Shown: positions 7,321 through 20,395, counted from the stretch's first letter. The stretch is DNA of 64,000 nt from Rathayibacter sp. VKM Ac-2760 (GCF_009834185.1 NZ_CP047173.1:1391725-1455724); one strand, 5' to 3'. Notes: generated by a model not told the origin, from the letters alone. Numbers and translations: made by a program.

Positions 7321-8706
7321 TCAGGCCGCGCCGAGGCGGGTGACGGCGGAGGTGATCGCCGGGGTGCTCGCGCCGTCGGGCCAGCGGAGGGTGACGCCCT
7401 CGCCGGGGACGACGCGGCCGATGGCGGCGGTGGCGCTGTGCGGGGTGCCCATCCGGGAGGCGCCGGGGCGGTCGGCGGTGAGCATCGCGAAGCCGGGGAA
7501 GCAGGAGAGCCAGTCGGCGAGGCCGGCGGCGGAGGGGCGGGGGATCGCGGCGACCTCGAGCTCGGCACCCGCCCCGGACGCCTCCGCGAGCATGCCGACG
7601 GTGCCGACGAGCCCGGCCATGCTGACGTCCTTCGCGCCGTCGGGAGCGCAGGCGCCGACGCTCGCAGCGAGGGCGCGGAGCACCTCCGGCGGGCGGCCGG
7701 AGGTCGAGTCCCACTGCAGTCCCGCGTAGCCCGGGCGCCACGCGCCGGAGAGGTCGGCGGTCAGGCTCAGCTGGTGTCCGATCGGGGCGCTGCCCGGGAC
7801 CGGGCGCGCGGTGCGGCCGAGGCCGGTGACCGAGAGCGCGGCGGGCACTCCGAGCTGGGTGTGGCCGCCGAGCAGTGGCACGCCCCAGGCCTCGCTGCCG
7901 GCGCGCAGGCCGCGGAGGATGCGGGCGGCGAAGGAGGCGTCCCGCGCGCCGACCGCGTCGAGCAGGCCGACCGGATCGGCGCCCATCGCGGTGAGGTCGT
8001 TGACGTTGACGAGCACCGAGCACCAGCCCGCCCACTCCGGGTCGCGCTCGACCATCGAGGGGACGATCGCGTCGCAGACGGCGACGAGGTCGGAGCCGGG
8101 GACGGGCGCGCCGTCGTCGCCGCGGAAGCCCGGGCCGCCGAGCTGGCCGGCGAACGCGTCGAGCAGCGGACCGAGGGCGGCCTTGGCCCCGCGAGCGAGG
8201 CGGTCGAAGCGGTCGATCGGCCAGCGCATCCGCACGTGCGGGACGCCGGCCACCTCCGCCGTGCCGAGGCGGTCCCAGCCGAGCCGGCGGAAGAGCACCT
8301 CGTTCTGGGTCTGCACCGTCGCCTCGAAGCGGAGCACGCCGCGCGCCTCGGCCTCGGCGCAGGCGGCCCGGACCAGCGCGGCACCGAGGCCGGCGCCGCC
8401 GCGGGCGCTGCGGCGGACGACCAGGCGACTGCCGGTCCACCAGCCCAGATCGTGCTCCAGCGCGGGCGCGATCCGCACGCCACCGAGCACGCCGTCGGCC
8501 GAGCGCGCGACCAGGACGACCGTGCGCGGATCCTCGTCGAGAGTGTCGCGGTCGTCGGCGTCGAAGAGGCCCTGCTCGGCGACGAAGACCTCGCGGCGCA
8601 GCGCCCGGTAGGCGGCCACCTCGGCCGGGTCCGCGACCACGACCACGAAGGCCTCGCGGGCAGCCGGCGCGACCGCGCGGACCCCCTCGAGGATCGAGAG
8701 CTGCAT
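7321..8706 (-). CDS. GNAT acetyltransferase / AIR-synthase-related fusion protein (MSMEG_0567-type)
   Basis: 461 aa. The N-terminal half is a GNAT acetyltransferase fold and the C-terminal half is an AIR-synthase-related (PurM-like) domain. ATGA overlap with the radical SAM gene. Confidence 0.85.
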   Translation of the reverse strand: MQLSILEGVRAVAPAAREAFVVVVADPAEVAAYRALRREVFVAEQGLFDADDRDTLDEDPRTVVLVARSADGVLGGVRIAPALEHDLGWWTGSRLVVRRSARGGAGLGAALVRAACAEAEARGVLRFEATVQTQNEVLFRRLGWDRLGTAEVAGVPHVRMRWPIDRFDRLARGAKAALGPLLDAFAGQLGGPGFRGDDGAPVPGSDLVAVCDAIVPSMVERDPEWAGWCSVLVNVNDLTAMGADPVGLLDAVGARDASFAARILRGLRAGSEAWGVPLLGGHTQLGVPAALSVTGLGRTARPVPGSAPIGHQLSLTADLSGAWRPGYAGLQWDSTSGRPPEVLRALAASVGACAPDGAKDVSMAGLVGTVGMLAEASGAGAELEVAAIPRPSAAGLADWLSCFPGFAMLTADRPGASRMGTPHSATAAIGRVVPGEGVTLRWPDGASTPAITSAVTRLGAA

Positions 8707-9851
8707 CAGGCGCCGGCGGTCTTCAGCACGCCGCAGGCGCCGCAGGCCGCGCAGCCCGCCTTCTGGCCGGAGGAGAGCATCCCCGCCGCGATCAGCAGCG
8801 CGGCGACCTGCTCGCTCACCTTCTCCAGCAGCGAGCCGGCCGGCGGCAGGACGTGGTCCACCTCCGTCGCGAGCGTGCCCCTGAGCGGCCGGAACGGCAC
8901 CACGAACGGGTAGATCCCGCGCTCGATCAGCTCGCCGGCGCTCGCGACCAGCTCGTCGGGATCCTCGCCGAGGCCGACGAGCAGGTAGGTCGAGACCTGG
9001 TTGCGGCCGAAGATCCGCACCGCCTCGTCCCAGGCCTCCCAGTACTTCGCGGTCGAGACGCGCGCCTTGCCGGGGGTCCAGCGGCGGCGGATGTCGTCGT
9101 CCATCGACTCGATGTGGATGCCGATCGAGAGGGCGCCGGCGTCCTTCAGCTCCTGCAGCGCGGCGAGGTCCTCCGGCGGCTCGCACTGCACCTGGATCGG
9201 CAGCCCGGGCACGGCCTCGAGCACAGCGCGGACGCAGCGGGCGAGGTGCCGGGCGCCGCGGTCGCGACCCTTCGAGGTGCCGGTGGTCATCACCATCTGG
9301 CGGATGCCGTCCAGCCGGGCGGCTGCCTCGGCGACCTCGGCGAGCTGCGCGGGGGTCTTCACGGCGATGGTGGAGTCGTTGGCGAGCGAGGCCTCGATCG
9401 CGCAGAAGCGGCAGCGCTCGGCCGCGTCGTAGCGCATGCAGGTCTGCACGACGGTGGTGGCGAGGATGTTCCGGCCGTGCAGGCGGGCGATCTTCTCGTA
9501 GGAGACGCCGTCGGCGGTGCTGAGGTCGTAGAAGCGCGGGCGCTTCACCGGCTCCACGTCGAGGCCGATGTCGGCGCCGTCGAGCAGGAGCCGGCCGTTG
9601 GTCACGGCGTAGGGGCTCTTCGGGTTGACGGGGATGGCGGCGCCGAGGCCGCCGAGCATCACGTGGCCGTCGTCGCTCGGGCCGGCGCCCGCCTCGCGGT
9701 GCACGGGGGCGTCGACGCGGATGCCCTGCAGGGCGATGTCGACGCGGGTGCGCAGGGCGGACGGGGCGGCTCCGCAGCCGGAGTCGGCGGGAGCGGTGTC
9801 GGTCGGGGCACTGTCGATGGTGCGGAGGCGGGGCATCTGCAGGTCGGTCAT
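8706..9851 (-). CDS. radical SAM protein, MSMEG_0568 family
   Basis: 381 aa with a Cys-rich radical SAM core (CxxxCxxC-like: RCRFCAIE) and a C-terminal CAACGACG cluster. It is the first gene of a minus-strand operon diverging from the Sll0783-type operon. Confidence 0.85.
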   Translation of the reverse strand: MTDLQMPRLRTIDSAPTDTAPADSGCGAAPSALRTRVDIALQGIRVDAPVHREAGAGPSDDGHVMLGGLGAAIPVNPKSPYAVTNGRLLLDGADIGLDVEPVKRPRFYDLSTADGVSYEKIARLHGRNILATTVVQTCMRYDAAERCRFCAIEASLANDSTIAVKTPAQLAEVAEAAARLDGIRQMVMTTGTSKGRDRGARHLARCVRAVLEAVPGLPIQVQCEPPEDLAALQELKDAGALSIGIHIESMDDDIRRRWTPGKARVSTAKYWEAWDEAVRIFGRNQVSTYLLVGLGEDPDELVASAGELIERGIYPFVVPFRPLRGTLATEVDHVLPPAGSLLEKVSEQVAALLIAAGMLSSGQKAGCAACGACGVLKTAGA

Positions 9852-9928
9852 GGTGCTCCTCGGATTCTCGAGTCGAGCGGTGCGCGACGGCGAGTCCGAC
9901 GTCGTGAGCCTCCATTAGGTCAACGCGG

Positions 9929-9975
9929 TGTTTCGGAGCGATGACATCGGGAACGCGATCGTGTTACATCCGGCG
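9929..9975. promoter_or_regulatory. candidate GlnR-type operator in the divergent promoter (GTAAC-n6-GCGTTC-n5-GTCAT-n6-GAAAC read on the minus strand)
   Basis: Two half-site pairs matching the actinobacterial gTnAc-n6-GaAAc pattern, in the 378-bp gap between the radical SAM and Sll0783-family genes. This is inference only. Confidence 0.3.
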
Positions 9976-10229
9976 GCCGCCCCGGAGCCCGCCCGGCGTC
10001 ACGCAGGCTTCTTCTGGCCGAAACCACTTCGAAACACGAGCGGCCTTGACTGGACGCAGTCGGGACGAACGCTCCCGACCCGGCCCCGTCGCTCCGCTCG
10101 CCCTCGAACCGCCCCGAGCGACGCCGGCCTCTGCATCACAGCACCGCCCGTTCCACCCGGCACTCCTGTCCCTGCACCACTCGCTCGCGCCCCGCCCGGC
10201 GCGCTCCTCACCGAACCCCGGAGGTTCCC

Positions 10230-10799
10230 ATGACCGACGACCAGACCACCCCCGCCGACGTCAGCACGGACGACCAGGCCGCGATCGAAGAGCAGATCAG
10301 CGCCAACATCGAGAAGTCGCGCGGCGAGATCGCGCACCCCTCGCTGCCCAAGGGCAGCAACCTCTACGGCTCCACCAAGGTCTTCCCCGACTACCAGGCC
10401 GAGCCCGGGCAGTCCTACTTCACCCTCGTGCACGGCATCGCGCACGAGTCCTCGGTCAGCTTCGTCGCGATCCTGCAGGCGACCCGCGCGGCCCGCAAGG
10501 GCTTCGAGTCGGCCGTCTACTTCTACGGCCCCGGCACGATCAACGCGATGGCGACCCGTGGCTTCCCGACGGTCGGCGACTCCGGCTTCCCGGGGGAGCA
10601 GAACATCAACGACGCCCTGAAGACCTTCATCGACGAGGGCAACCGCGTCTTCGTCTGCCGCTTCGGCATGGCGCTGCACGGCCTGCGCGAGGAGGACCTG
10701 ATCGAGGGCACCATCCCCTGCCACCCGCTCGACGTGCAGGACGCCGTCATCCACTACGCCCGCAAGGGCGCCATCATCAACTCGACCTACAACCTCTAG
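10230..10799 (+). CDS. MSMEG_0572 / Sll0783-family nitrogen-starvation-response protein
   Basis: 189 aa. It is the first gene of a plus-strand operon, with an RBS GGAGG upstream. Family assignment is from recalled family knowledge and gene context (Nit, small protein, FAD oxidoreductase, GT downstream). Confidence 0.75.
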   Translation: MTDDQTTPADVSTDDQAAIEEQISANIEKSRGEIAHPSLPKGSNLYGSTKVFPDYQAEPGQSYFTLVHGIAHESSVSFVAILQATRAARKGFESAVYFYGPGTINAMATRGFPTVGDSGFPGEQNINDALKTFIDEGNRVFVCRFGMALHGLREEDLIEGTIPCHPLDVQDAVIHYARKGAIINSTYNL

Positions 10800-10808
10800 G
10801 CCGCCGCC

Positions 10809-11687
10809 ATGACCGTCGTCGGATCGGTCGCGGCGAACTTCACCCGCGACCTCGATCAGAACTACGCGCTCATCGCCGCGCTGGCCGAGGAGGCCCGGGA
10901 GAAGCGGGTCGAGTTCCTCGTCCTGCCCGAGGCCGCGATCGGCGGCTACCTCTCCTCGCTCGGCAATCACGGCGACACCGTCAAGACGACGACCCGATCG
11001 ATGCCACCGGCGATCGCGCTGGACGGGCCGGAGCTGCGCCGGGTGCAGGAGATCGCGGGCGACCTGCTGGTCGCGATCGGCTTCTGCGAGCTCGACGAGG
11101 ACGGCGAGACCCGCTACAACGCGGCCGCCCTGCTCGACGGCGGGCAGATCTACGGCAGCTACCGCAAGGTGCACCAGCCGCTCGGCGAGCACATGTCCTA
11201 CTCGCCCGGGCCCGGCTACTCGGTCTTCGAGACGCCGGTCGGCCGGGTCGGGCTGCAGATCTGCTACGACAAGGCCTTCCCGGAGGCGGCCCGCTCGATG
11301 GCGCTGGACGGGGCGGAGATCATCGCCTCGCTCTCGGCCTGGCCGGCCGCGCGGACGGCGACGGCGGAGAACCTGCAGGAGGACCGCTGGACCTACCGCT
11401 TCAACCAGTTCGACATCGCGCGGGCCCTGGACAACCAGGTGTTCTGGCTGGCGTCGAACCAGTCCGGCACCTTCGGGTCGCTCCGCTACGTGGGCAACGC
11501 GAAGGTCGTCGATCCGGGCGGCAACATCCTCGCGACGACGCTGCTCGGCTCCGGCATGGCGGTCGCCGACATCGACGTGCGGGGCACCTTCGAGGCGATG
11601 CGCGGCGGGATGTTCCACCTGCGCGACCGCCGGCCGGACGCCTACGACATCGACCGCGTCTGGAGCGGAGGGCTGGTCCATGCCTGA
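10809..11687 (+). CDS. carbon-nitrogen hydrolase (nitrilase/Nit superfamily)
   Basis: Intact E-K-C triad context (LVLPEAAIGGY, YRKVH, GLQICYDKAFPE). Confidence 0.85.
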   Translation: MTVVGSVAANFTRDLDQNYALIAALAEEAREKRVEFLVLPEAAIGGYLSSLGNHGDTVKTTTRSMPPAIALDGPELRRVQEIAGDLLVAIGFCELDEDGETRYNAAALLDGGQIYGSYRKVHQPLGEHMSYSPGPGYSVFETPVGRVGLQICYDKAFPEAARSMALDGAEIIASLSAWPAARTATAENLQEDRWTYRFNQFDIARALDNQVFWLASNQSGTFGSLRYVGNAKVVDPGGNILATTLLGSGMAVADIDVRGTFEAMRGGMFHLRDRRPDAYDIDRVWSGGLVHA

Positions 11688-12000
11688 GATGACCTTCCAC
11701 GTCCGCTGGCCGGACGGCGTCGAGGAGCGCTGCTACTCGCCGAGCCTGGTGATGCACGACTACCTCGCCGAGGGCGAGAGCTATCCGCTCGAGGACTTCG
11801 TCGGGCGCTCGACCGAGGCGCTGCGGCTGGCCAGCGAGCGGGTGCGCGCGAAGTTCGGCTTCGCCTGCACCTCCGCGCTGCAGCAGGAGTCGGAGATCGT
11901 CGCGGCCGCCGCGCGCTTCGACGGCGGGCGGGTGCGGGTGCTGGCGATGGATCCGCCGCTGCCGTCCGCTGCTCCGACCGTGCAGGGGACGCGCGCATGA
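11680..12000 (+). CDS. small conserved protein, MSMEG_0570-like
   Basis: 106 aa. It overlaps the upstream stop by 8 nt and the downstream start by 4 nt. Position and size match the small cluster member. Confidence 0.65.
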   Translation: MPEMTFHVRWPDGVEERCYSPSLVMHDYLAEGESYPLEDFVGRSTEALRLASERVRAKFGFACTSALQQESEIVAAAARFDGGRVRVLAMDPPLPSAAPTVQGTRA

Positions 12001-13271
12001 CCGCGCTCGAGAACGGCCGGCACCTGCCGGTCGCCGTGATCGGCGCCGGTCAGGCCGGGCTGTCGATCAGCCGCCTGCTCACGGACGAGGGCGTCGAGCA
12101 CCTCGTGATCGAGCGCGACACGATCGCGCACGACTGGCTCGACCGCCGCTGGGACAACTTCACCCTCGTCACGCCGAACTGGCAGTGCCGGCTCCCGGGT
12201 TACCCCTACGACGGCGACGACCCGCACGGCTTCATGACCCGCGACGAGGTGCACGCCTGGGTGCGGCGCTACGCGGAGTCGTTCGACGCTCCGGTCGTGG
12301 AGGACACCGAGGTGCTGCGGCTGCGCGAGGGCGCGGACGGGGCCTTCGAGATCGTCACCTCGCGCGGCACGATCACGGCCGACCAGGTCGTCGTCGCGAC
12401 CGGCGGCTACCACCGGCCGGTGCTGCCGGCGGTCGCGCACCGCATCCCGGACTCGGTCGTGCAGCTGCACTCGGCCGACTACCGCTCGGCCGCGGCGCTG
12501 CCCGAGGGCGGGGTGCTCGTGGTCGGCTCCGGCCAGTCCGGCGCGCAGATCGCGGAGGACCTCTTCCTCGAGGGGCGCGCCGTGCACCTGGCGCTGGGGA
12601 CCGCTCCGAGAGTCGCCCGGTTCTACCGCGGGCGGGACTGCGTCGCGTGGCTCGCCGACATGGGCGTCTACGACGTGCCGGTGCACGCGCAGGTGGGCGG
12701 GCTCTCGAAGCGGGAGTCGACCAATCACTACGTCACCGGGCGCGGCGGCGGGCGGGATATCGACCTGCGGGCGTTCGCGCGCGACGGGATGCACCTCTAC
12801 GGGCGGCTGCAGCAGGTCGACGGTGCGTCGCTCCGGTTCGCGCCGACGGCCGAGGCGTCGCTCGACTACGCGGACTCGGTCGCCGAGTCGATCAAGAACG
12901 ACATCGACGCCTACATCGAGCGCTCGGGCGTGCAGGCGCCGACCGAGGCCCGCTACACCCCGGTCTGGCGGCCGGAGCGCGAGATCGAGGAGCTGGACCT
13001 GGCGGCCGCCGGGATCACGAGCATCGTCTGGGCGGTCGGCTTCCGCGCCGACTACTCCTGGATGCAGATCGGCGTCTTCGACGGCGCCGGGCACCCCACC
13101 CACCGCCGCGGCGCGACCGCGGTGCCGGGGCTGCACTTCCTCGGGCTGCCGTGGCTGAACACCTGGGGCTCCGGCCGCTTCGAGGCGATCGCGCGGGATG
13201 CGGAGCACGTGGTGCAGCAGCTGCTCGGCGGCGCGCGGTTGGACCGGTTCGAGGGCGCCGCGGTACGGTGA
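11997..13271 (+). CDS. FAD-dependent oxidoreductase (flavin monooxygenase-like), MSMEG_0569-type
   Basis: Two Rossmann dinucleotide motifs (VIGAGQAG and VVGSGQSG) typical of class B flavoprotein monooxygenases. Confidence 0.85.
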   Translation: MTALENGRHLPVAVIGAGQAGLSISRLLTDEGVEHLVIERDTIAHDWLDRRWDNFTLVTPNWQCRLPGYPYDGDDPHGFMTRDEVHAWVRRYAESFDAPVVEDTEVLRLREGADGAFEIVTSRGTITADQVVVATGGYHRPVLPAVAHRIPDSVVQLHSADYRSAAALPEGGVLVVGSGQSGAQIAEDLFLEGRAVHLALGTAPRVARFYRGRDCVAWLADMGVYDVPVHAQVGGLSKRESTNHYVTGRGGGRDIDLRAFARDGMHLYGRLQQVDGASLRFAPTAEASLDYADSVAESIKNDIDAYIERSGVQAPTEARYTPVWRPEREIEELDLAAAGITSIVWAVGFRADYSWMQIGVFDGAGHPTHRRGATAVPGLHFLGLPWLNTWGSGRFEAIARDAEHVVQQLLGGARLDRFEGAAVR

Positions 13272-13352
13272 CGGCCGCGCGCTCGCCCCGGGCGCGCCTC
13301 CGGCCGCTCGTCCGGCCGCTCGTCCGGCCGGGCGGGGCGAGAGAAGAGGACC

Positions 13353-14207
13353 ATGTCGAGCATCACCCTGGCCGCGGTCGCGGCGCACTTCGGCCGCGAT
13401 CTCGAGCGCACCCTCGTCAAGCTGCCCGGCATGATCGCGAGCGCGCAGGAGCGCGGGATCGACCTGCTGGTGCTGCCCGACGCGACGCTCGGCGGCTACC
13501 TGCTCGACATGCACCACCCCGGCCCGGACGACCTGCCGCAGGCCGTGGAGGTCGACGGGCCGGAGGTCGCCGCGGTCGCGGCGATGGCGGGGGACACGAC
13601 GGTGTGCTTCGGCATCGCCGAGCGCGCGCTCGAGGGCGGCGAGGTCCGCCGCTACAACTCGGCGGTCTGCGTGCAGGGCGGCCGGGTGATCGGGACGCAC
13701 CGGAAGGTGCACCTGCCGCTGGGCGAATCGGAGGCGTACGCGGCGGGCGACGCGTTCCGCTCCTTCGACTCCGCGGTCGGGCGGATCGGGATGATGATCG
13801 ACTTCGACAAGACCTTCCCCGAGTCGGCGCGCTCGCTGGCGCTGGACGGGGCGGAGATCCTCTGCTGCCTCAGCGCCTGGCCGGCCAGCGTCACCGACCG
13901 GTCCGACCGGATCCGCAACGACCGGCAGGCGCACCTGTTCGACCTCTACGACTGCGCGCGCGCCGCCGAGAACCAGGTCTACCTGGTGTCCTCGAACCAG
14001 ACAGGCGTGCTCGGCGGGCTGCGCTTCCTCGGGCAGGCGAAGGTCGTCGATCCGGCCGGCGAGATCATCGCGAAGACGTGGGCGAAGGGCGGGCTCGCGG
14101 TCGCGACGGACGACGTGTCCGCGTCCGTGGCGCGAGCCCGGCGGAGCATGGACCACCTGCGGGACCGCGCCGTGCACGCGTACCACGGGGCGGCGCCCAC
14201 CGGCTGA
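13353..14207 (+). CDS. Nit-superfamily paralog with substituted catalytic residues (probable pseudoenzyme or altered chemistry)
   Basis: Aligns along its length to the 10809 Nit gene, but the nucleophile Cys motif ICYDKAFPE reads IDFDKTFPE (C to D) and the Glu in LPEAAIGGY reads LPDATLGGY (E to D). The Lys (HRKVH) is kept. Confidence 0.8.
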   Translation: MSSITLAAVAAHFGRDLERTLVKLPGMIASAQERGIDLLVLPDATLGGYLLDMHHPGPDDLPQAVEVDGPEVAAVAAMAGDTTVCFGIAERALEGGEVRRYNSAVCVQGGRVIGTHRKVHLPLGESEAYAAGDAFRSFDSAVGRIGMMIDFDKTFPESARSLALDGAEILCCLSAWPASVTDRSDRIRNDRQAHLFDLYDCARAAENQVYLVSSNQTGVLGGLRFLGQAKVVDPAGEIIAKTWAKGGLAVATDDVSASVARARRSMDHLRDRAVHAYHGAAPTG

Positions 14208-14278
14208 CCCGGCCGGCCTGCCCGCCCGGCTGCCCGGCCCCGCTGCCCACCCGCCCGCTCGATCGAGAAGGAGACCCC

Positions 14279-15385
14279 GTGCGGATCGCGCAGCTGACCT
14301 ACTCCACCAGGCCCCGCGGCGGCGTGGTGCACACGCTCGCGCTCTCGGAGGCGCTGGCCCGGCGCGGGCACGAGGTGACCGTCTGGACGCTCGGCCGCGG
14401 CGGTGACTCCGCCTTCTTCCGCGCGGTCGATCCCGCCGTGGCGGTCCGGGTCGTGCCGTTCGCGGCGCGAGAGGGCGAGAGCGTCGGCGACCGGATCGTC
14501 CGCTCCCTCGATGCGCTCGCGGCCGGGCTCGCGGCGACGGGCGGGACGGAGTGGGACGTCGTGCACGCGCAGGACTGCATCTCGGCCAACGCCGCGCTCC
14601 GTGCCGGCGCCGCCGGACCGGGCGGGCTGCTGCGCACCGTGCACCACCTCGATGAGTTCACGACGCCGGCGCTGATCGACTGCCACGAGCGCGCGCTCAC
14701 CGGGCCGGCCGCGCTGCTCGCGGTCTCGGCGTCGGTCGCGGGCGACGTCGCCGCAGGCTGGGGCCGCGAGCCGACCGTGATCCCGAACGGCGTCGACGCC
14801 GCGCGCTTCGCCGCCGCCGCGGGCGGCCAGGGGGTCGCCGAGTGGCGGGCCGAGCTCGGCCGCTACGTGCTCGCGCTCGGCGGCATCGAGCCGCGGAAGG
14901 GCAGCGTCGACCTGCTGGCGGCGTTCGCGGGACTCGCGCCCGGCACGGTGCTCGTCTTCGGCGGCGGGGAGACGCTGTTCGACTACCGGGGCTATCGCGA
15001 GGAGTTCGAGCGCCGGGCGGCCGAGCTGGGGGTGACGCCGGTCGTGCTCGGCACGGTGCCCGAGGAGCGGCTCGCAGCGCTCGTCGCCGGCGCGGCGGTG
15101 CTCGGCTTCGTCTCGACCAAGGAGGGCTTCGGCCTCGCGGCGATGGAGGCGCTCGCCGCGGGGGTGCCGGTCGTCGCGCGCGATCTGCCGGTGCTGCGCG
15201 AGGTGTTCGGCGGGACGGTGGCGTACGGGAGCGACGTGGCGGGCATCCGGGCGGCGCTGGCCGCGGCGCTCGCGGGGGAGGCGCCGGACCCGCGGCCCGG
15301 GCGGGAGCTGGCCTTCTCGCACTCCTGGGACGACGTCGCCGCGAGCCACGAGGCCCTGTACCGGTCGCACGCGAGCGCCGCCTGA
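14279..15385 (+). CDS. glycosyltransferase family 4 (MSMEG_0565-type)
   Basis: GTG start with a GAGAAGGAG RBS. GT-B fold with the EGFGLAAMEALAAGVPVV motif. It sits inside a 1066-aa shadow ORF in the track. Confidence 0.85.
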   Translation: MRIAQLTYSTRPRGGVVHTLALSEALARRGHEVTVWTLGRGGDSAFFRAVDPAVAVRVVPFAAREGESVGDRIVRSLDALAAGLAATGGTEWDVVHAQDCISANAALRAGAAGPGGLLRTVHHLDEFTTPALIDCHERALTGPAALLAVSASVAGDVAAGWGREPTVIPNGVDAARFAAAAGGQGVAEWRAELGRYVLALGGIEPRKGSVDLLAAFAGLAPGTVLVFGGGETLFDYRGYREEFERRAAELGVTPVVLGTVPEERLAALVAGAAVLGFVSTKEGFGLAAMEALAAGVPVVARDLPVLREVFGGTVAYGSDVAGIRAALAAALAGEAPDPRPGRELAFSHSWDDVAASHEALYRSHASAA

Positions 15386-16800
15386 TGCGCCGCTCGTTCT
15401 CGCGCTGCTTCTCGGCGCTCGCCGCGGAGGATCCCGAGCGGGTCGTGGTCGTCGCGGACGACGCGACGCTCACCGCGGGCGCCCTGGACCGGGCCTCGAA
15501 CCGGCTCGCGCGCGCCTACGCGGCGCGGGGCGTCACTCCGGACTCGCTCGTCGCGGTCTCGCTGCCGAACTCGGCCGAGCTGGTGCTGGCCTGCGCCGCG
15601 ATCTGGAAGGCGGGCGCGACGCCGCAGCCGCTCTCGCGCGGGCTCTCGGCGCGGGAGCTCGCCGAGGTCGGCGCGCTCGGGCGGCCCACGCTGAGCGTCG
15701 GCGTCGAGCTGGAGGGCGTGCCGTTCGTCCCCGCCGGCTTCGAGCCCGACCCGGCGCTGCCGGACGACGAGCTGCCGGATCTCCGGGCGGCGTCGTGGAA
15801 GGCGCCCGCCTCCTCCGGCAGCACCGGTCGGCCGAAGATCGTTCTCGCGGCGGCTCCCGCGCTGATGGACCCGACGCAGCCGGTCGCGGCCTTCCTGCCG
15901 CGGGAGGGGGTGCAGCTCGTGGCCGGGCCGCTCACCCACTCCGCGACCTTCACCTACGCGTTCCGCGGGCTCCTGACCGGGCAGCGGCTGGTGATCCTGC
16001 CGCGCTTCGACGAGGCGCGGGTGCTCGCCGCGATCGCGGCGCACCGGGTGACCTGGGCGCTGCTGGTGCCGACGATGATCCACCGGCTGCTGCGGACGCC
16101 CGCGCACCGGGACGCGGACGTGTCGTCGCTCGAGACGGTGCTGCACCTGGGCTCGCCGTGCCCGCCCGCGGACAAGCGCGCGCTGATCGACTGGGTCGGG
16201 GCGGAGAAGGTGGTCGAGGTCTACGCGGGCAGCGAGTCGAACGGGCTGACGATGATCCGCGGCGACGAGTGGCTGGAGCGGCCCGGCAGTGTCGGCCGGC
16301 CGATCGGCGGCACGGAGCTTCGGGTGCTGCGCCCGGACGGGACGGAGTGCGCGGTCGGTGAGCCGGGGCGGGTCTGGCTGAAGCGCGGCGAGCCGACCTA
16401 CCGCTACCTCGGCGGGGAGTCGAAGCGGACGGAGGACGGCTGGGACACGCTCGGCGACGTCGGCTCGGTCGACGCCGACGGCTACCTGACCGTGCTCGAC
16501 CGGGCCGACGACCTGATCCTGCGCGGCGGGGTGAACGTCTACCCGGCGGAGATCGAGCGGGTGCTGGAGGAGCACCCGGCGGTGCGCGGGGCGGTCGCGT
16601 ACGGCGTCCCGGATGCGGAGCTGGGCCAGGCGATCGAGGCGGTGGTCGACATCGCGGACGCCGCAGTGACGGCGGAGGAGCTGCTCGCCTTCGCGCGCGA
16701 GCACCTCGGCTCACGCGCGCCGCGGGCGCTGCGGCTCCAGCGCTCGCCGCTGCGCGACGACGCGGGCAAGGTGCGGCGCGCGGCGCTCGCGGACGACTGA
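15385..16800 (+). CDS. AMP-dependent synthetase/ligase (acyl-CoA synthetase family)
   Basis: AMP-binding motif SSGSTGRPK and adenylation core (YAGSE, GWDTLGDVG, LILRGGVNVYP). Its start overlaps the GT stop (TGATG). Confidence 0.85.
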   Translation: MRRSFSRCFSALAAEDPERVVVVADDATLTAGALDRASNRLARAYAARGVTPDSLVAVSLPNSAELVLACAAIWKAGATPQPLSRGLSARELAEVGALGRPTLSVGVELEGVPFVPAGFEPDPALPDDELPDLRAASWKAPASSGSTGRPKIVLAAAPALMDPTQPVAAFLPREGVQLVAGPLTHSATFTYAFRGLLTGQRLVILPRFDEARVLAAIAAHRVTWALLVPTMIHRLLRTPAHRDADVSSLETVLHLGSPCPPADKRALIDWVGAEKVVEVYAGSESNGLTMIRGDEWLERPGSVGRPIGGTELRVLRPDGTECAVGEPGRVWLKRGEPTYRYLGGESKRTEDGWDTLGDVGSVDADGYLTVLDRADDLILRGGVNVYPAEIERVLEEHPAVRGAVAYGVPDAELGQAIEAVVDIADAAVTAEELLAFAREHLGSRAPRALRLQRSPLRDDAGKVRRAALADD

Positions 16801-16922: not shown

Positions 16923-17028
16923 GCTCGACGGCCGTCTCCGGTTTCGGAACGCCCCGGACGGGGAAGTGGAGGAGTGCCCCTTCCCCGGAGTCGTCCCGCG
17001 CGGCTCCGCAGCACCGAGAGGAACCCCC

Positions 17029-18111
17029 GTGGTCGCCATCGCCCCGCTCCGAGACCGCTTCGACGGAGTCGAGAGGATCGCCGTGCTCCGCGGTGGCGGA
17101 CTCGGCGATCTGCTCTTCGCGCTGCCCGCCGTGGACGCGCTCGCCGCCGCGTACCCGGGCGCCGAGATCACCCTGCTCGGCACTCCGGCGCACCGCGTGC
17201 TGATCGAGGGCAGCGACGCGCCCGTGGCGGGCGTCGAGGTGCTGCCGGTGGCGCAGGGTGTGCGCGACGGCGACGGGGAGGACGAGCGGATCGTCGAGGA
17301 CTTCACGGCCCGGATGCGCGCCCGGCGCTTCGACCTCGCGGTGCAGCTGCACGGCGGCGGGCGCTTCTCCAACCCGTTCCTGCTACGGCTCGGCGCGCGG
17401 CACACGATCGGCACGCGCACCGACGACGCGGCGGACCTGGAGCGCACCATCCCCTACGTCTATTACCAGCACGAGATGCTGCGCGCGCTCGAGGTCGTCG
17501 GGCTCGCGGGCGCGCCGGCGGTGCGGCTGGAGCCGTCGCTGCAGGTCGACCCGGAGCGCCGCGACCGGCTCGCCGCGGTGCTGCCCGACGGCGGACCGCT
17601 GGTGCTGATCCACCCGGGGGCGACGGACGTGCGGCGGCGCTGGGCGAGCGCGTCCTTCGCCGAGGTGGCGCGGGCGCTGCTGGCGGACGGGGCGCGCGTG
17701 CTCGTGGTCGGCGACGCCTCCGACGTGCCCGCCGCCGACGCGATCGTCGCGGGCGCGCCGGGCGCCGTGTCGTGGGCCGGCGCGGTCGAGCTGCCGGACC
17801 TCGCTCCGCTGCTCTCGCTCGCCGACCTCGTGCTCGGCAACGACAGCGGACCGCGGCACCTCGCAGCGGCGGTCGGGGCGCCCACGGTCGGCGTCTTCTG
17901 GGTGGGCAACGCGATCAACGCCCAGCCCCTCGGCCGCCAGCGCCACCGCGTCCAGCTGAGCTGGACCACCCGCTGCCCGGTCTGCGGCATCGACGTCACG
18001 CAGGTCGGCTGGACCGCCCCGCGCTGCGAGCACGAGCTGTCCTTCGTCGACGACGTCCCCGTCTCCCGCGTCCTGGAGGACGCCCGAGCCGTCCTCGCCT
18101 CGACCAGCTGA
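17029..18111 (+). CDS. glycosyltransferase family 9 (ADP-heptose:acceptor heptosyltransferase-like)
   Basis: GT9 motifs (RGGGLGDLLFALPAV...HPGATDVRRRW...GNDSGPRHLAAAVGAPTV). The start is a GTG with a GAGAGGA RBS. Confidence 0.85.
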   Translation: MVAIAPLRDRFDGVERIAVLRGGGLGDLLFALPAVDALAAAYPGAEITLLGTPAHRVLIEGSDAPVAGVEVLPVAQGVRDGDGEDERIVEDFTARMRARRFDLAVQLHGGGRFSNPFLLRLGARHTIGTRTDDAADLERTIPYVYYQHEMLRALEVVGLAGAPAVRLEPSLQVDPERRDRLAAVLPDGGPLVLIHPGATDVRRRWASASFAEVARALLADGARVLVVGDASDVPAADAIVAGAPGAVSWAGAVELPDLAPLLSLADLVLGNDSGPRHLAAAVGAPTVGVFWVGNAINAQPLGRQRHRVQLSWTTRCPVCGIDVTQVGWTAPRCEHELSFVDDVPVSRVLEDARAVLASTS

Positions 18112-18243: not shown

Positions 18244-18948
18244 TCACGGCCAGGAGGGCTCCTCCTCGTGGGTGATGACGAGCTCGCGGACCTCGCAACC
18301 GCGGGGCTGGCCGAGGACGAACATCACGGCGTTCGCGACGTTCTCCGGGTCGTTGAGGAGCGCGTCGGGGCCCGGCTTGTACTGGGCGTCGCGGTCGTCG
18401 AAGAAGCGGGTCTTCATGCCGGAGGGGATCAGGGTGGTGACGCCGATCTCGCCCTTGGTCTCGGCCGCGAGGGCGCGGGTGAAGCCGAGCACGCCGAATT
18501 TCGACGCGCAGTAGGCGGTCGCGTCCGAGACGGCCTTGATCGCGAGCGAGGACGCGACGGTGACGACGCGGCCGTGGGTCTCCGTCAGGAACGGCAGCGC
18601 GGCGCGGACGACAGCGGCGGTGCCGAGCAGGTTGACCGAGATCACGCGCTCCCACTCCTCCGGGTCGACGTCGACGAGGCGGCCGCAGCGGTCGATGCCG
18701 GCCGCGGTGACGACGGCGTCGAGTCCGCCGTGCTCGTGGGCGATCTCGACGACCGCCTTCTCGGCCTCGCGGGTCTTCGCGACGTCCACCTGGTAGGCGG
18801 CGACGCCCTCCTGCACGTTCGACACGTCGCGGTCGAGGACGATCGGCGTGCCGCCCGCGGCCGCGACGGCAGCGGCGACGGCGGCTCCGAGTCCGGAGGC
18901 GCCTCCGGTGATCAGGACGCGGCCGATGGGGGTGGGGGTGGTGGTCAT
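18244..18948 (-). CDS. SDR-family oxidoreductase
   Basis: TGGASGLG Rossmann motif and a catalytic YxxxK (YCASK). Confidence 0.85.
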   Translation of the reverse strand: MTTTPTPIGRVLITGGASGLGAAVAAAVAAAGGTPIVLDRDVSNVQEGVAAYQVDVAKTREAEKAVVEIAHEHGGLDAVVTAAGIDRCGRLVDVDPEEWERVISVNLLGTAAVVRAALPFLTETHGRVVTVASSLAIKAVSDATAYCASKFGVLGFTRALAAETKGEIGVTTLIPSGMKTRFFDDRDAQYKPGPDALLNDPENVANAVMFVLGQPRGCEVRELVITHEEEPSWP

Positions 18949-19020: not shown

Positions 19021-20395
19021 TCAGCCGACGCGCGCGAGCGCGGCGGCGAGATGGGTGGTCGAGCGGCCCGCGTGGTACGGCACCGTCAGGACGCGGCCGC
19101 CCCACTCGGCGACCGTCGCGGTCTCGGGCAGCGATTCGGCGGAGTAGTCGCCGCCCTTGACCCAGACGTCCGGGCGGATGCGGCGCAGTGCCTCGTCCGG
19201 GGTGTCCTCGCCGAAGACGAGCACGGCGTCGACGCACTCGAGCGCGAGCAGCAGGTCGACCCGGTCGTCCTCGGGGATGATCGGCCGCGCCGGTCCCTTC
19301 AGGCGACGGACGGAGTCGTCCGAGTTGAGGCAGACGATCAGGCAGTCGCCGAGCGCCCGGGCGGCCGAGAGGGTGCGGGCGTGCCCGGCGTGCAGCAGGT
19401 CGAAGCAGCCGCCGGTCGCGACCACGGTGCCGCCGGCGCCGCGGACGGCCTCGGCGACGCGCAGCGCGTCCACCCCCGAGGCCCCGTGCAGGGCGGCGGT
19501 GTCGGCGGGCACGGCGAGGGAGGCGCGACCGCCCGCGAGCAGATAGGCACCGGCCGCGGCGACGGCCGCGCCGACCGCCTCGGACGCAGTGGCCCCGCCC
19601 GCGAGTGCGACGGCGGCGGAGGCGGCGAAGGTCGCCCGCCCCGCACGGGTCCGTCGGCGGCACGGGGGCGGCAGGATGCACGACCGGAACGCCGGCGCCG
19701 CGCGAGCGGACCAGCGCACCGCCGGAGCCCATCGTCACGGCGACCGCGCCGCAGCCCCAGCGCTCGAGCAGCGTCGTCGCGGCGGTCTCGGCGAGGGTGA
19801 CGCCGCGGCCACTCGCGCCGGAGAAGCCGGTGGCCTCGCCGAGGTTCGGCGTCGCGAGGGTCGTCCCGGCGACGGGCGCCGAGCCGCGCGGGTGCGGATC
19901 CCAGACCAGCGGCACCGAGAGCGCGTCGAGGGCGGCCCGCAGCGAGGCGTCCTCGGTCAGCCGGCGGCCGTAGTCCGCCACGACGACCGCGTCCACCTCG
20001 TCGAGCGCGGCGAGCATCTCCAGGGTCACGCTCGGCACCGGCGGTCGCTCGCAGCCGCGGTCGAAGCGGACGACGGCCTGGCCGGAGGCCGCGACCCGCG
20101 TCTTCACCGGCGTCGGAGCGCCGGACGGACCGGCGACCACCCGCACGCCGTCGAGCGCGACCAGCAGCTCGGCGGCATCCGGGTCCGCGGCGTCGGCGAG
20201 CGCCGTCACCAGCACGACGTCGTGGCCGTCGCGCGCGAGCATCCGCGCCACGAGCCCGGCGCCGCCGGCCCGGACCCCGCGGGTCGACACGTCGACCACG
20301 GGCACGGGCGCGTCGGGGCTCAGCCGCTCGGCCGGGCCGGAGAGGTCGACGTCGAGCATCACGTCGCCGACCACGGCGATCCGCAGGCGGCTCAC
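19021..20395 (-). pseudogene. hldE: second hldE paralog (heptose kinase plus adenylyltransferase) with an apparent frameshift between domains
   Basis: The kinase domain reads in one frame to ...PCGAGD. The adenylyltransferase domain (TFAASAAV...GGCFDLLHAGHARTL...LNSDDSVRRLKG) is in another frame. The junction GGCGACCTTCGCC lacks about 2 nt relative to GGC GAC ACC TTC GCC. This could be a sequencing error. Confidence 0.6.

What the first reader, a model, noticed from the sequence alone, without database searches (positions are those of the whole stretch)
13353..14207. Second Nit-family paralog inside the cluster has lost the catalytic Cys and Glu (C to D, E to D)
The two Nit proteins align cleanly: VGRVGLQICYDKAFPE versus VGRIGMMIDFDKTFPE, and LVLPEAAIGGY versus LVLPDATLGGY. 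The nitrilase-superfamily triad is Glu-Lys-Cys and the Cys is the covalent nucleophile. The second copy keeps only the Lys, so it is either a regulatory or scaffolding pseudoenzyme or it performs non-canonical chemistry. A paired active/inactive Nit duo embedded in a biosynthetic cluster is unusual.
Basis: seen in the sequence. Interest (0 to 1): 0.6.

Follow-up and report, generated by a model that had tools for sequence, protein, structure and literature searches.

The report
Conserved cysteine-less nitrilase-family paralog
The second nitrilase-family gene in this nitrogen-starvation gene cluster really has aspartate in place of the catalytic cysteine. This is a strictly conserved feature of hundreds of actinobacterial orthologs, including the ortholog of M. 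smegmatis MSMEG_0566, so the protein cannot work as the amidase it is annotated to be.

Summary
ORF 13353-14207 (+) encodes a 284-aa CN_hydrolase (PF00795, 8e-37) that is 44% identical to the canonical paralog at 10809-11687. It carries Asp43 for the catalytic Glu and Asp150 for the nucleophile Cys. Profile alignment to solved structures and AlphaFold models of both paralogs place D150 and C152 at the same strand-to-helix elbow.

This is not a one-off. All 383 clade members examined have Asp at the Cys site. Position 43 drifts (D, H, G, A), while K118 and E125 are about 99% kept. The clade is monophyletic and under purifying selection (dN/dS 0.08-0.27). It is the fourth most conserved of the eight cluster proteins.

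Nit2 always sits in the actinobacterial MSMEG_0565-0572 ('gpr'/Nit1C-like) cluster, next to a canonical E-K-E-C paralog and usually just upstream of the glycosyltransferase. Proteobacterial versions have one Nit6803 nitrilase and no dead copy.

The most likely function is a non-thiol ligand-binding or partner subunit that arose by duplication of the cluster's amidase. Carboxylate-based catalysis cannot be excluded. I found no paper that notes the Cys loss.

The parts
13353..14207 (+). Nit2: a Cys-less CN_hydrolase paralog of 284 aa. Its active-site signature is D43-K118-E125-D150. It is the positional ortholog of MSMEG_0566.
13800..13802 (+). Codon GAC for Asp150, at the position of the nucleophile Cys. 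It is invariant in all 383 clade members examined.
13479..13481 (+). Codon GAC for Asp43, at the position of the catalytic Glu. This position varies in the clade: D 331, H 31, G 15, A 3, N 1, E 1.
13704..13727 (+). Segment that retains Lys118 (AAG, 13704-13706) and the second Glu, E125 (GAA, 13725-13727).
10809..11687 (+). Nit1: the canonical CN_hydrolase paralog (E41-K120-E127-C152). It is not a Nit6803-type nitrilase: TIGR04048 scores 39.9 bits against a cut-off of 502.6.
10230..10799 (+). MSMEG_0572/Sll0783 family protein (DsrE-like).
   Evidence: TIGR04044, 242 bits, cut-off 109.85
11680..12000 (+). MSMEG_0570 family protein.
   Evidence: TIGR04042, 126 bits, cut-off 79.85
11997..13271 (+). 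MSMEG_0569 family flavin-dependent oxidoreductase, immediately upstream of Nit2.
   Evidence: TIGR04046, 634.7 bits, cut-off 498.35
14279..15385 (+). MSMEG_0565 family GT4 glycosyltransferase, immediately downstream of Nit2.
   Evidence: TIGR04047, 403.8 bits, cut-off 259.85
8706..9851 (-). MSMEG_0568 family radical SAM protein, divergently transcribed.
   Evidence: TIGR04043, 496.5 bits, cut-off 303.7
7321..8706 (-). MSMEG_0567 family fusion protein (GNAT domain plus AIR-synthase-like domain).
   Evidence: TIGR04050, 437 bits; TIGR04045, 116 bits

Best explanation
Nit2 is an ancient duplicate of the cluster's own amidase-type CN hydrolase (Nit1). It has permanently lost thiol-based C-N hydrolysis (Cys to Asp, and the Glu general base is no longer constrained) but keeps the alpha-beta-beta-alpha fold and nearly all of the ligand pocket. 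It most likely acts as a non-hydrolytic, ligand-binding subunit of the MSMEG_0565-0572 pathway. In this reading it binds the same or a related small molecule as Nit1 (substrate or carboxylate product), with the Asp150 carboxylate paired to Lys118 and Glu125 where the thioester would normally form. It would then serve either as a 'prozyme-like' hetero-oligomer partner of Nit1 or as a hand-off partner for the flavoprotein and glycosyltransferase encoded on either side of it.

Shown: the substitutions, their strict conservation, the intact fold, purifying selection, the obligate cluster context, and co-occurrence with a canonical paralog.

Inferred: loss of amidase/nitrilase activity, retention of ligand binding, and the identity of the partner.
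For: D150 aligns with the nucleophile in every alignment, and the models agree. D150 is present in 383 of 383 clade members. Position 43 varies (D, H, G, A, N, S), as expected if the general-base role is gone. The clade is monophyletic and lies next to Nit1-type sequences. dN/dS is 0.08-0.27, similar to neighbouring genes. Mean p-distance over 94 loci is 0.255, making Nit2 the fourth most conserved of the eight cluster proteins. About 75 positions are at least 90% conserved and identical in both the Nit1 and Nit2 clades, including Y49, N102, K118, H120, E125, Y129, W176 and P177. Nit2 occurs only with a canonical E-K-E-C paralog in the same cluster. It never occurs in proteobacterial clusters that use a Nit6803 nitrilase, even when the glycosyltransferase is present. 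Engineered Cys-less variants of this fold still bind substrate in crystals (6ypa C146A with glutaramide; the 5h8l C158S complex). There are precedents for active/inactive pairing. About 33 tandem CN_hydrolase x2 proteins have a canonical N-terminal domain and a Cys-less C-terminal domain, and sorghum forms heteromeric NIT4A/NIT4B2 nitrilase complexes (PMC5154151). The M. smegmatis ortholog is transcribed and induced about 9-fold by nitrogen starvation (PMC4222082), and all eight ORFs of the operon are expressed (PMC6039565).
Against: There is no biochemical data for any member. K118, E125 and D150 are almost invariant, which is tighter than in typical dead domains; the Cys-less C-terminal domains of the tandem proteins drift much more at the Lys and Glu positions. 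That pattern fits a working active site as well as it fits a binding site. An exploratory rate-covariation test gave no specific Nit1-Nit2 signal (partial r = 0.09). The stronger links were to the adjacent flavoprotein (0.43) and glycosyltransferase (0.38), although gene adjacency confounds this test. The partner is therefore undetermined.
Confidence: 0.45

Rival explanations
1. Nit2 is a real enzyme with non-canonical, thiol-free chemistry on the nitrilase fold. One option is water activation by a carboxylate pair (D43/D150 or E125/D150), with K118 stabilising the oxyanion, in the manner of aspartic hydrolases. Others are an Asp acyl or glycosyl intermediate, or Lys118 Schiff-base chemistry. 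The substrate would be a pathway intermediate different from that of Nit1.
For: D150 is present in 383 of 383 sequences, K118 in 379 of 383 and E125 in 378 of 383, which is conservation typical of catalytic residues. The common residues at position 43 (Asp 86%, His 8%) can both act as acid/base groups. The pocket is conserved. Overall constraint is strong. Clade-specific substitutions conserved at 90% or more (H116, S179, Q192, L195, D197, E206, Q228) suggest a re-tuned rather than a decaying site.
Against: Position 43 is Gly, Ala, Asn or Ser in about 5% of members, and a few members also lose Lys and the second Glu (AQDD and AQHD signatures). That is hard to reconcile with one fixed catalytic mechanism. 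I know of no characterised nitrilase-superfamily member that works without the Cys (own knowledge), and four literature searches found none. Engineered Cys-less variants such as C146A and C158S are used in solved structures to hold bound ligand.
Confidence: 0.33
2. Nit2 is specifically an auxiliary, non-catalytic activator or acceptor-presenting partner of the MSMEG_0565-family glycosyltransferase encoded directly downstream. This would resemble the Cys-less P450-like auxiliary proteins (DesVIII, EryCII) that macrolide glycosyltransferases need (own knowledge). It is a special case of the best explanation.
For: Nit2 lies immediately upstream of the glycosyltransferase in Microbacteriaceae, Mycobacteriales, Streptomyces, Acidimicrobiia and a Rhodococcus plasmid. 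The stop and start codons overlap by 4 nt in L070, L071 and L072. The partial rate correlation between Nit2 and the glycosyltransferase is 0.38.
Against: Proteobacterial clusters carry the same glycosyltransferase family without any Nit2. In Curtobacterium the glycosyltransferase is separated from Nit2 by three genes. The one apparent Nit2-glycosyltransferase fusion (P0131) matches only in fragments and is probably a frameshifted assembly. The rate correlation is confounded by adjacency.
Confidence: 0.15
3. Nit2 is a decaying pseudogene or a sequencing or annotation artefact.
For: The only support is that two catalytic residues are missing.
Against: The ORF is intact in 65 of 66 genome loci; the single 'stop' flagged in L051 was not examined and may simply be the gene's own stop codon at the end of the match. 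dN/dS is 0.08-0.27. The same Asp is present in 383 sequences from at least 15 actinobacterial families. The AlphaFold model is confident, at pLDDT 93. The M. smegmatis ortholog is transcribed (PMC4222082, PMC6039565).
Confidence: 0.02
4. The motif correspondence is shifted, and another Cys serves as the nucleophile.
For: Nit2 contains Cys residues conserved at 95-99% (C85, C106).
Against: The alignment around the motif is gapless against Nit1 and against four PDB families. The secondary-structure register is identical in both models. C85 and C106 pair across two strands of the beta-meander about four residues away from its active-site end, and C106 is shared with Nit1.
Confidence: 0.01

Closest known systems
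MSMEG_0566 ('aliphatic amidase') of the M. smegmatis gpr operon MSMEG_0565-0572 (PMC6039565, PMC4222082)
   Same: It holds the same position in the same eight-gene cluster. Six neighbours in the window exceed the curated NCBIfam cut-offs of the MSMEG_05xx models. In Mycolicibacterium moriokaense the gene order is identical to that of M. smegmatis, and the gene between the 0567 and 0565 homologs has the D-K-E-D signature. The operon is induced by nitrogen starvation through GlnR.
   Different: I could not retrieve the M. smegmatis sequence itself, so the Cys loss in MSMEG_0566 is inferred from close relatives. Published work treats it as a putative amidase contributing to nitrogen assimilation and does not mention the missing Cys.
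Nit1C cluster (Podar et al. 2005, PMC1199592; the Pseudomonas cyanide-assimilation nit cluster, PMC7815647)
   Same: The core is shared: a DsrE-like protein, a CN hydrolase, a radical SAM protein, a GNAT, an AIR-synthase-like protein, a ~100-aa protein and a flavoprotein, with or without a GT4 glycosyltransferase.
   Different: Nit1C has a single, true branch-1 nitrilase (Nit6803 family, TIGR04048) and no second CN hydrolase. Here that nitrilase is replaced by an amidase-like Nit1 (39.9 bits against a 502.6 cut-off), and a Cys-less duplicate is added.
Nitrilase superfamily amidases and carbamoylases (Pyrococcus PH0642/3ivz, D-carbamoylase, N-carbamoylputrescine amidase, H. pylori 6mg6)
   Same: The fold matches (Foldseek TM about 0.8, E about 1e-22). 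The Lys, the second Glu, the C-x-D/E aspartate and many pocket residues are kept.
   Different: The nucleophile Cys is replaced by Asp and the general-base Glu by Asp/His/Gly. There is also a ~15-residue insertion (about residues 180-195), which Nit1 shares.
Heteromeric nitrilase complexes of Poaceae (sorghum NIT4A/NIT4B2; PMC5154151)
   Same: Paralogous nitrilase-superfamily subunits assemble into a heteromer whose activity differs from that of either paralog alone.
   Different: To my knowledge, both plant subunits retain the catalytic triad. They are eukaryotic and are not encoded in an operon.
Dead-paralog activators ('prozymes', such as trypanosomatid AdoMetDC prozyme) and Cys-less P450-like glycosyltransferase auxiliaries (DesVIII/EryCII); own knowledge, not tested here
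   Same: A catalytically disabled paralog is maintained under selection and encoded next to its partner.
   Different: These are unrelated folds, and no interaction has been shown for Nit2.
Tandem CN_hydrolase x2 proteins (550-610 aa) found
   Same: Each pairs a canonical E-K-E/D-C domain with a Cys-less CN_hydrolase domain.
   Different: They are fused in one polypeptide. The dead domain usually has Gly rather than Asp at the Cys site and drifts at the Lys and Glu positions. They are not orthologous to Nit1/Nit2 and are not in this cluster.

Membership tests
Nitrilase superfamily / Pfam CN_hydrolase (PF00795) | Sequence match above Pfam's gathering score | tested here: met
   127.4 bits against a cut-off of 23.2, E = 8e-37, covering profile positions 3-248 of 256.
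Nitrilase superfamily / Pfam CN_hydrolase (PF00795) | Alpha-beta-beta-alpha sandwich fold | tested here: met
   AlphaFold2 pLDDT 93.2 and pTM 0.92. The top Foldseek hits are all CN hydrolases, with TM 0.75-0.85 and E about 1e-22.
Nitrilase superfamily / Pfam CN_hydrolase (PF00795) | Catalytic Glu-Lys-Cys triad (plus second Glu), with Cys as covalent nucleophile | tested here: not met
   The signature is D43, K118, E125, D150. The Cys is replaced in 383 of 383 clade members and the first Glu is replaced in 382 of 383. Nit2 is a structural member of the superfamily but not a catalytic one.
Nit6803 family nitrilase (TIGR04048), the nitrilase of classical Nit1C clusters | Score above the curated cut-off of 502.6 bits | tested here: not met
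   Nit2 scores 32.3 bits and Nit1 scores 39.9 bits.
MSMEG_0565-0572 / Sll0783-0787 nitrogen-starvation cluster | Neighbours match the cluster-specific NCBIfam models above their cut-offs | tested here: met
   TIGR04044, 04042, 04046, 04043, 04047, 04050 and 04045 are all above their cut-offs.
MSMEG_0565-0572 / Sll0783-0787 nitrogen-starvation cluster | Conserved synteny of Nit2 with the cluster in other genomes | tested here: met
   65 of 66 genome loci have the full cluster; the remaining locus is a truncated contig that still has Nit2 next to the glycosyltransferase. 43 of 44 evaluable metagenome loci have Nit2. L069-L073 also conform.
MSMEG_0565-0572 / Sll0783-0787 nitrogen-starvation cluster | Induction by nitrogen starvation (GlnR or NtcA) | not testable with these tools
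   Shown for M. smegmatis (PMC4222082, PMC6039565) but not for this organism.
Pseudoenzyme (catalytically inactive paralog) | Loss of residues essential for the ancestral reaction, with retention under purifying selection | tested here: met
Pseudoenzyme (catalytically inactive paralog) | Demonstrated absence of catalytic activity | not testable with these tools
   This requires enzyme assays.
Hetero-oligomer with the active paralog (prozyme-like) | Physical complex between Nit1 and Nit2 | tested here: inconclusive
   Strict co-occurrence supports it. The rate-covariation test gave no specific signal (partial r = 0.09).

The most novel reading that the evidence does not exclude
The Nit2/MSMEG_0566 clade is the first natural lineage of the nitrilase superfamily that is catalytically active without the cysteine. 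It would use the invariant Asp150-Lys118-Glu125 constellation for a new, oxidation-insensitive reaction on an intermediate of the still-uncharacterised Nit1C/gpr pathway.
Probability: 0.28. Interest if true: 0.8.

Novelty: new variant of a known kind. Interest (0 to 1): 0.55.

Why it matters
The Glu-Lys-Cys triad is treated as universal across the nitrilase superfamily, so a deep, strictly conserved Asp-for-Cys clade is unexpected. Databases call these proteins 'carbon-nitrogen hydrolase', 'aliphatic amidase', 'nitrilase' or 'N-carbamoyl-D-amino acid hydrolase'. The M. smegmatis literature assumes MSMEG_0566 releases ammonia, and that annotation is almost certainly wrong. The protein sits in a widespread, nitrogen-starvation-induced operon (gpr/Nit1C-like) whose product has been unknown since 2005. 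Knowing that one of its two 'amidases' is non-canonical changes how the pathway should be reconstructed. It also gives a clean experimental handle: D150 mutants, Nit1/Nit2 co-purification and ligand capture by Nit2.

Tried and rejected
(1) Shifted alignment or an alternative nucleophile Cys. Rejected by PDB profile alignments and by both AlphaFold models.

(2) Decaying pseudogene. Rejected by intact ORFs, dN/dS values and clade-wide conservation.

(3) Nit1 as a Nit6803-type nitrilase. Rejected; both paralogs fall far below the TIGR04048 cut-off.

(4) The Pnap_2097-family protein, which occupies the slot after the flavoprotein in proteobacterial clusters, as a remote homolog of Nit2. Rejected; hhalign probability 0.1% and no CN_hydrolase match.

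(5) P0131 as a natural Nit2-glycosyltransferase fusion. The matches are fragmentary, so it is probably a frameshifted metagenome contig and I did not use it as evidence.

(6) A rate-covariation test for a Nit1-Nit2 interaction. It gave no specific signal and is confounded by gene adjacency.

(7) Retrieving the M. smegmatis MSMEG_0566 sequence directly.

(8) A Foldseek search against afdb50. The library was unavailable.

(9) Literature searches for Cys-less or pseudoenzyme members of the nitrilase superfamily and for MSMEG_0566. None describes the substitution.

(10) The promoter and terminator scan of 9800-15500 found nothing informative.

Full report
**Observation**

The window is a high-GC (70-77%) actinobacterial sequence. 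The closest relatives of the gene are in Rathayibacter and other Microbacteriaceae. The ORF at 13353-14207 (+) encodes 284 aa. It has a ribosome-binding site and an ATG start. It matches Pfam CN_hydrolase at 8e-37 and is 44% identical (E = 2e-82) to a second CN_hydrolase at 10809-11687.

- Nit1: LVLPE41 and QIC152YDK.
- Nit2: LVLPD43 and MID150FDK.

The codons were checked directly. Nit2 has GAC at 13479-13481 (D43) and GAC at 13800-13802 (D150). Nit1 has TGC at 11262-11264 (C152).

**Is the correspondence right?**

phmmer and a 64-sequence family profile against all PDB sequences align D43 with Glu42 and D150 with Cys146 of the Pyrococcus amidase/nitrilase. In the C146A crystal variants D150 aligns with Ala146. 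K118 and E125 align with the catalytic Lys and the second Glu.

AlphaFold2 models are confident for both paralogs:
- Nit2: pLDDT 93.2, pTM 0.92. It has strand 143-149 followed by helix 150-154.
- Nit1: pLDDT 89.7. It has strand 145-151 followed by helix 152-156.

D150 and C152 therefore occupy the same nucleophile elbow. Foldseek against the PDB returns only nitrilase-superfamily enzymes, with TM about 0.8.

No other Cys can substitute. C85 and C106 pair across the beta-meander away from the active-site end, and C106 is also present in most Nit1 orthologs.

One correction: Nit2 keeps the second Glu of the E-K-E-C tetrad as well as the Lys.

**More than chance: a conserved clade**

The first 120 homologs, at 71-92% identity, all have Asp at the Cys site. 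An exhaustive search of 1.84 billion representatives, plus two further searches seeded with distant members, extended this across Actinomycetota. The taxa now include:
- Streptomyces, Microbispora, Actinomadura and Catenulispora;
- Amycolatopsis, Saccharopolyspora and Pseudonocardia;
- Rhodococcus, Gordonia, Nocardia, Williamsia, Mycobacterium and Mycolicibacterium;
- the acidimicrobial genus Aquihabitans.

Across the 383 clade members:

| Position | Residues found |
|---|---|
| 150 (Cys site) | Asp 383/383 |
| 118 (Lys) | Lys 379/383 |
| 125 (second Glu) | Glu 378/383 |
| 43 (first Glu) | D 331, H 31, G 15, A 3, N 1, E 1 |

Ser also occurs at position 43 in two Corynebacterium loci. All 70 Nit1 orthologs are E-K-E-C.

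A neighbour-joining tree places all Asp-bearing sequences in one clade next to the Nit1-type sequences. This points to a single ancient duplication followed by one Cys-to-Asp replacement, which needs two nucleotide changes (TGC to GAC).

**Selection**

Against nine Rathayibacter and other Microbacteriaceae loci, Nit2 has dN/dS of 0.08-0.27. That lies between Nit1 and the flavoprotein. Over 94 complete loci, the mean protein p-distances are:

| Protein | Mean p-distance |
|---|---|
| Nit1 | 0.177 |
| 0572 | 0.199 |
| radical SAM (0568) | 0.244 |
| Nit2 | 0.255 |
| glycosyltransferase (0565) | 0.328 |
| flavoprotein (0569) | 0.332 |
| 0567 | 0.359 |
| 0570 | 0.382 |

Nit2 is thus more constrained than four bona fide enzymes or proteins of its own operon.

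About 75 positions are at least 90% conserved and identical in both paralog clades, including residues that typically line the pocket (Y49, N102, H120, Y129, W176-P177). About 20 positions are fixed differently in the two clades (H116/Y, S179/A, Q192/W, L195/R, D197/N, E206/D, Q228/N and others).

**Context**

The neighbours exceed the curated NCBIfam cut-offs for the following families:

| Family | Coordinates | Strand |
|---|---|---|
| MSMEG_0572 | 10230-10799 | + |
| MSMEG_0570 | 11680-12000 | + |
| MSMEG_0569 | 11997-13271 | + |
| MSMEG_0565 glycosyltransferase | 14279-15385 | + |
| MSMEG_0568 radical SAM | 8706-9851 | − |
| MSMEG_0567 (GNAT plus AIR-synthase-like) | 7321-8706 | − |

This is the actinobacterial form of the Nit1C cluster (PMC1199592). 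In M. smegmatis it is the GlnR-dependent 'gpr' operon MSMEG_0565-0572. That operon is induced by nitrogen starvation, is needed for peroxide resistance and raises the NADPH/NADP ratio (PMC6039565, PMC4222082). Those papers list MSMEG_0571 as a 'carbon-nitrogen hydrolase' and MSMEG_0566 as a 'putative aliphatic amidase'.

In Mycolicibacterium moriokaense the gene order is that of M. smegmatis, and the gene between the 0567 and 0565 homologs has the D-K-E-D signature. MSMEG_0566 is therefore almost certainly Cys-less too.

Synteny is essentially universal:
- 65 of 66 genome loci from 12 genera carry the whole cluster with both paralogs. The 66th is a truncated contig that still has Nit2 next to the glycosyltransferase.
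- 43 of 44 evaluable metagenome loci found through Nit1 also have Nit2 with Asp. The exception, L155, is a reduced cluster.
- The His variant (Aquihabitans), the Gly variant (a MAG) and Streptomyces all show the same arrangement. Nit2 lies directly upstream of the glycosyltransferase with a 4-nt overlap.
- A 565-kb Rhodococcus plasmid carries the cluster. PGAP gives specific names to six of its genes but only 'carbon-nitrogen hydrolase family protein' to both Nit copies.

Proteobacterial plasmid clusters (Agrobacterium, Paraburkholderia, Acetobacter) have one Nit6803 nitrilase and no second CN hydrolase, even where the glycosyltransferase is present. Neither window paralog is a Nit6803 nitrilase; both score below 40 bits against a cut-off of 502.6.

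**Mechanism**

The data establish that thiol-dependent C-N hydrolysis is impossible for Nit2. They also show that the protein is functional in some other way.

I favour a non-hydrolytic ligand-binding or partner role (confidence 0.45), for these reasons:
- The former general-base position has lost constraint.
- Engineered Cys-less variants of this fold still bind substrates (6ypa, 5h8l).
- Nit2 occurs only together with its active sister paralog, and never with the unrelated Nit6803 nitrilase.
- Active/inactive pairing recurs in the superfamily. Among the hits, about 33 tandem CN_hydrolase x2 proteins have a canonical N-terminal domain and a Cys-less C-terminal domain. Sorghum NIT4A/NIT4B2 form functional heteromers (PMC5154151).

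Whether the partner is Nit1 or the flanking flavoprotein and glycosyltransferase is open. Gene adjacency and an exploratory rate-covariation analysis point weakly to the flanking genes (partial r of 0.43 and 0.38, against 0.09 for Nit1). That test is confounded by linkage.

The main rival (confidence 0.33) is genuine thiol-free catalysis. The near-invariance of D150, K118 and E125 is tighter than in the dead domains of the tandem proteins. Asp or His at position 43 could pair with D150 to activate water. Against this, Gly, Ala, Asn or Ser occupy position 43 in about 5% of members, and rare members also lose the Lys and the second Glu.

The decay and misalignment explanations are excluded.

**Novelty**

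The two-hydrolase architecture of the gpr operon is published, and the family is widely annotated. However, seven literature searches found no mention that one copy lacks the nucleophile, and no description of natural Cys-less nitrilase-superfamily proteins. No curated family model exists for either copy.

I rate this as a new variant of a known kind: a Cys-less, Asp-bearing clade of the nitrilase superfamily tied to a known but functionally unsolved operon. Interest is 0.55. The substitution is real, ancient and surprising to a specialist, and it gives a useful handle on an open pathway. Its function remains inferred.

Noticed in passing
Proteins P0158, P0174-P0179, P0186, P0193, P0196 and others, (not in the window): About 33 proteins of 550-610 aa carry two CN_hydrolase domains in tandem. 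The N-terminal domain is canonical (E-K-E/D-C). The C-terminal domain lacks the Cys (mostly Gly, sometimes Ala, Ser or Asp) and often the Lys. No NCBIfam model names them. This looks like a second, independent family of active/dead nitrilase-fold pairs.
   Followed up: partly
window 10809-11687 (Nit1), compared with L069-L072: The window's Nit1 is 80% identical to Mycolicibacterium Nit1 but only 52-54% identical to the Nit1 of Streptomyces, Aquihabitans and a MAG. Nit2 is about 60% identical to the Mycolicibacterium, Streptomyces and MAG copies and 52% to the Aquihabitans copy. There seem to be two Nit1 subtypes, or gene exchange within the cluster, so the two paralogs do not share one history.
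   Followed up: partly
window 15385-16800 (+), 16966-18111 (+), 18244-18948 (-), 19021-20395 (-): Directly downstream of the cluster lie an acyl-CoA-ligase-like AMP-binding protein, a GT9 heptosyltransferase-like protein, an SDR and an RfaE/HldE-like heptose kinase. An AMP-binding gene also follows the cluster in Acetobacter (L076) and flanks it in Aquihabitans (L070), so it may be an accessory member.
   Followed up: partly
window 11680-11687: The Nit1 stop codon (TGA) overlaps the start of the MSMEG_0570-family gene by 8 nt, in a different reading frame. The selenocysteine read-through fusion of MSMEG_0571 through 0569 proposed in PMC6039565 would not be in frame here.
   Followed up: no
window 13300-13330: A short tandem direct repeat (CCGGCCGCTCGT, two copies) lies in the 81-nt gap between the flavoprotein gene and Nit2.
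   Followed up: no
L069 11886-14586 (Mycolicibacterium moriokaense): A cobalt-type nitrile hydratase operon (NHase alpha and beta subunits, CbtA/CbtB) sits immediately next to the cluster's glycosyltransferase.
   Followed up: no
L074 12123-12965; L075 13425-14246: Proteobacterial clusters have a ~275-aa 'Pnap_2097 family' protein in the slot after the flavoprotein, which Nit2 occupies in the window. It is not homologous to Nit2 and may have a hot-dog fold, though the Pfam hint for that is weak.
   Followed up: yes
L073 (Rhodococcus qingshengii N9T-4 plasmid pN9T4-1): The cluster is plasmid-borne in Rhodococcus on mobilizable megaplasmids. The Nit6803 form is on more than 370 Klebsiella plasmids, which indicates frequent horizontal spread.
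   Followed up: no
P0131 (669 aa, ENA metagenome): An apparent fusion of a Nit2-like N-terminus with a GT4 C-terminus. The matches are fragmentary, so it is probably a frameshifted assembly rather than a true fusion.
   Followed up: partly
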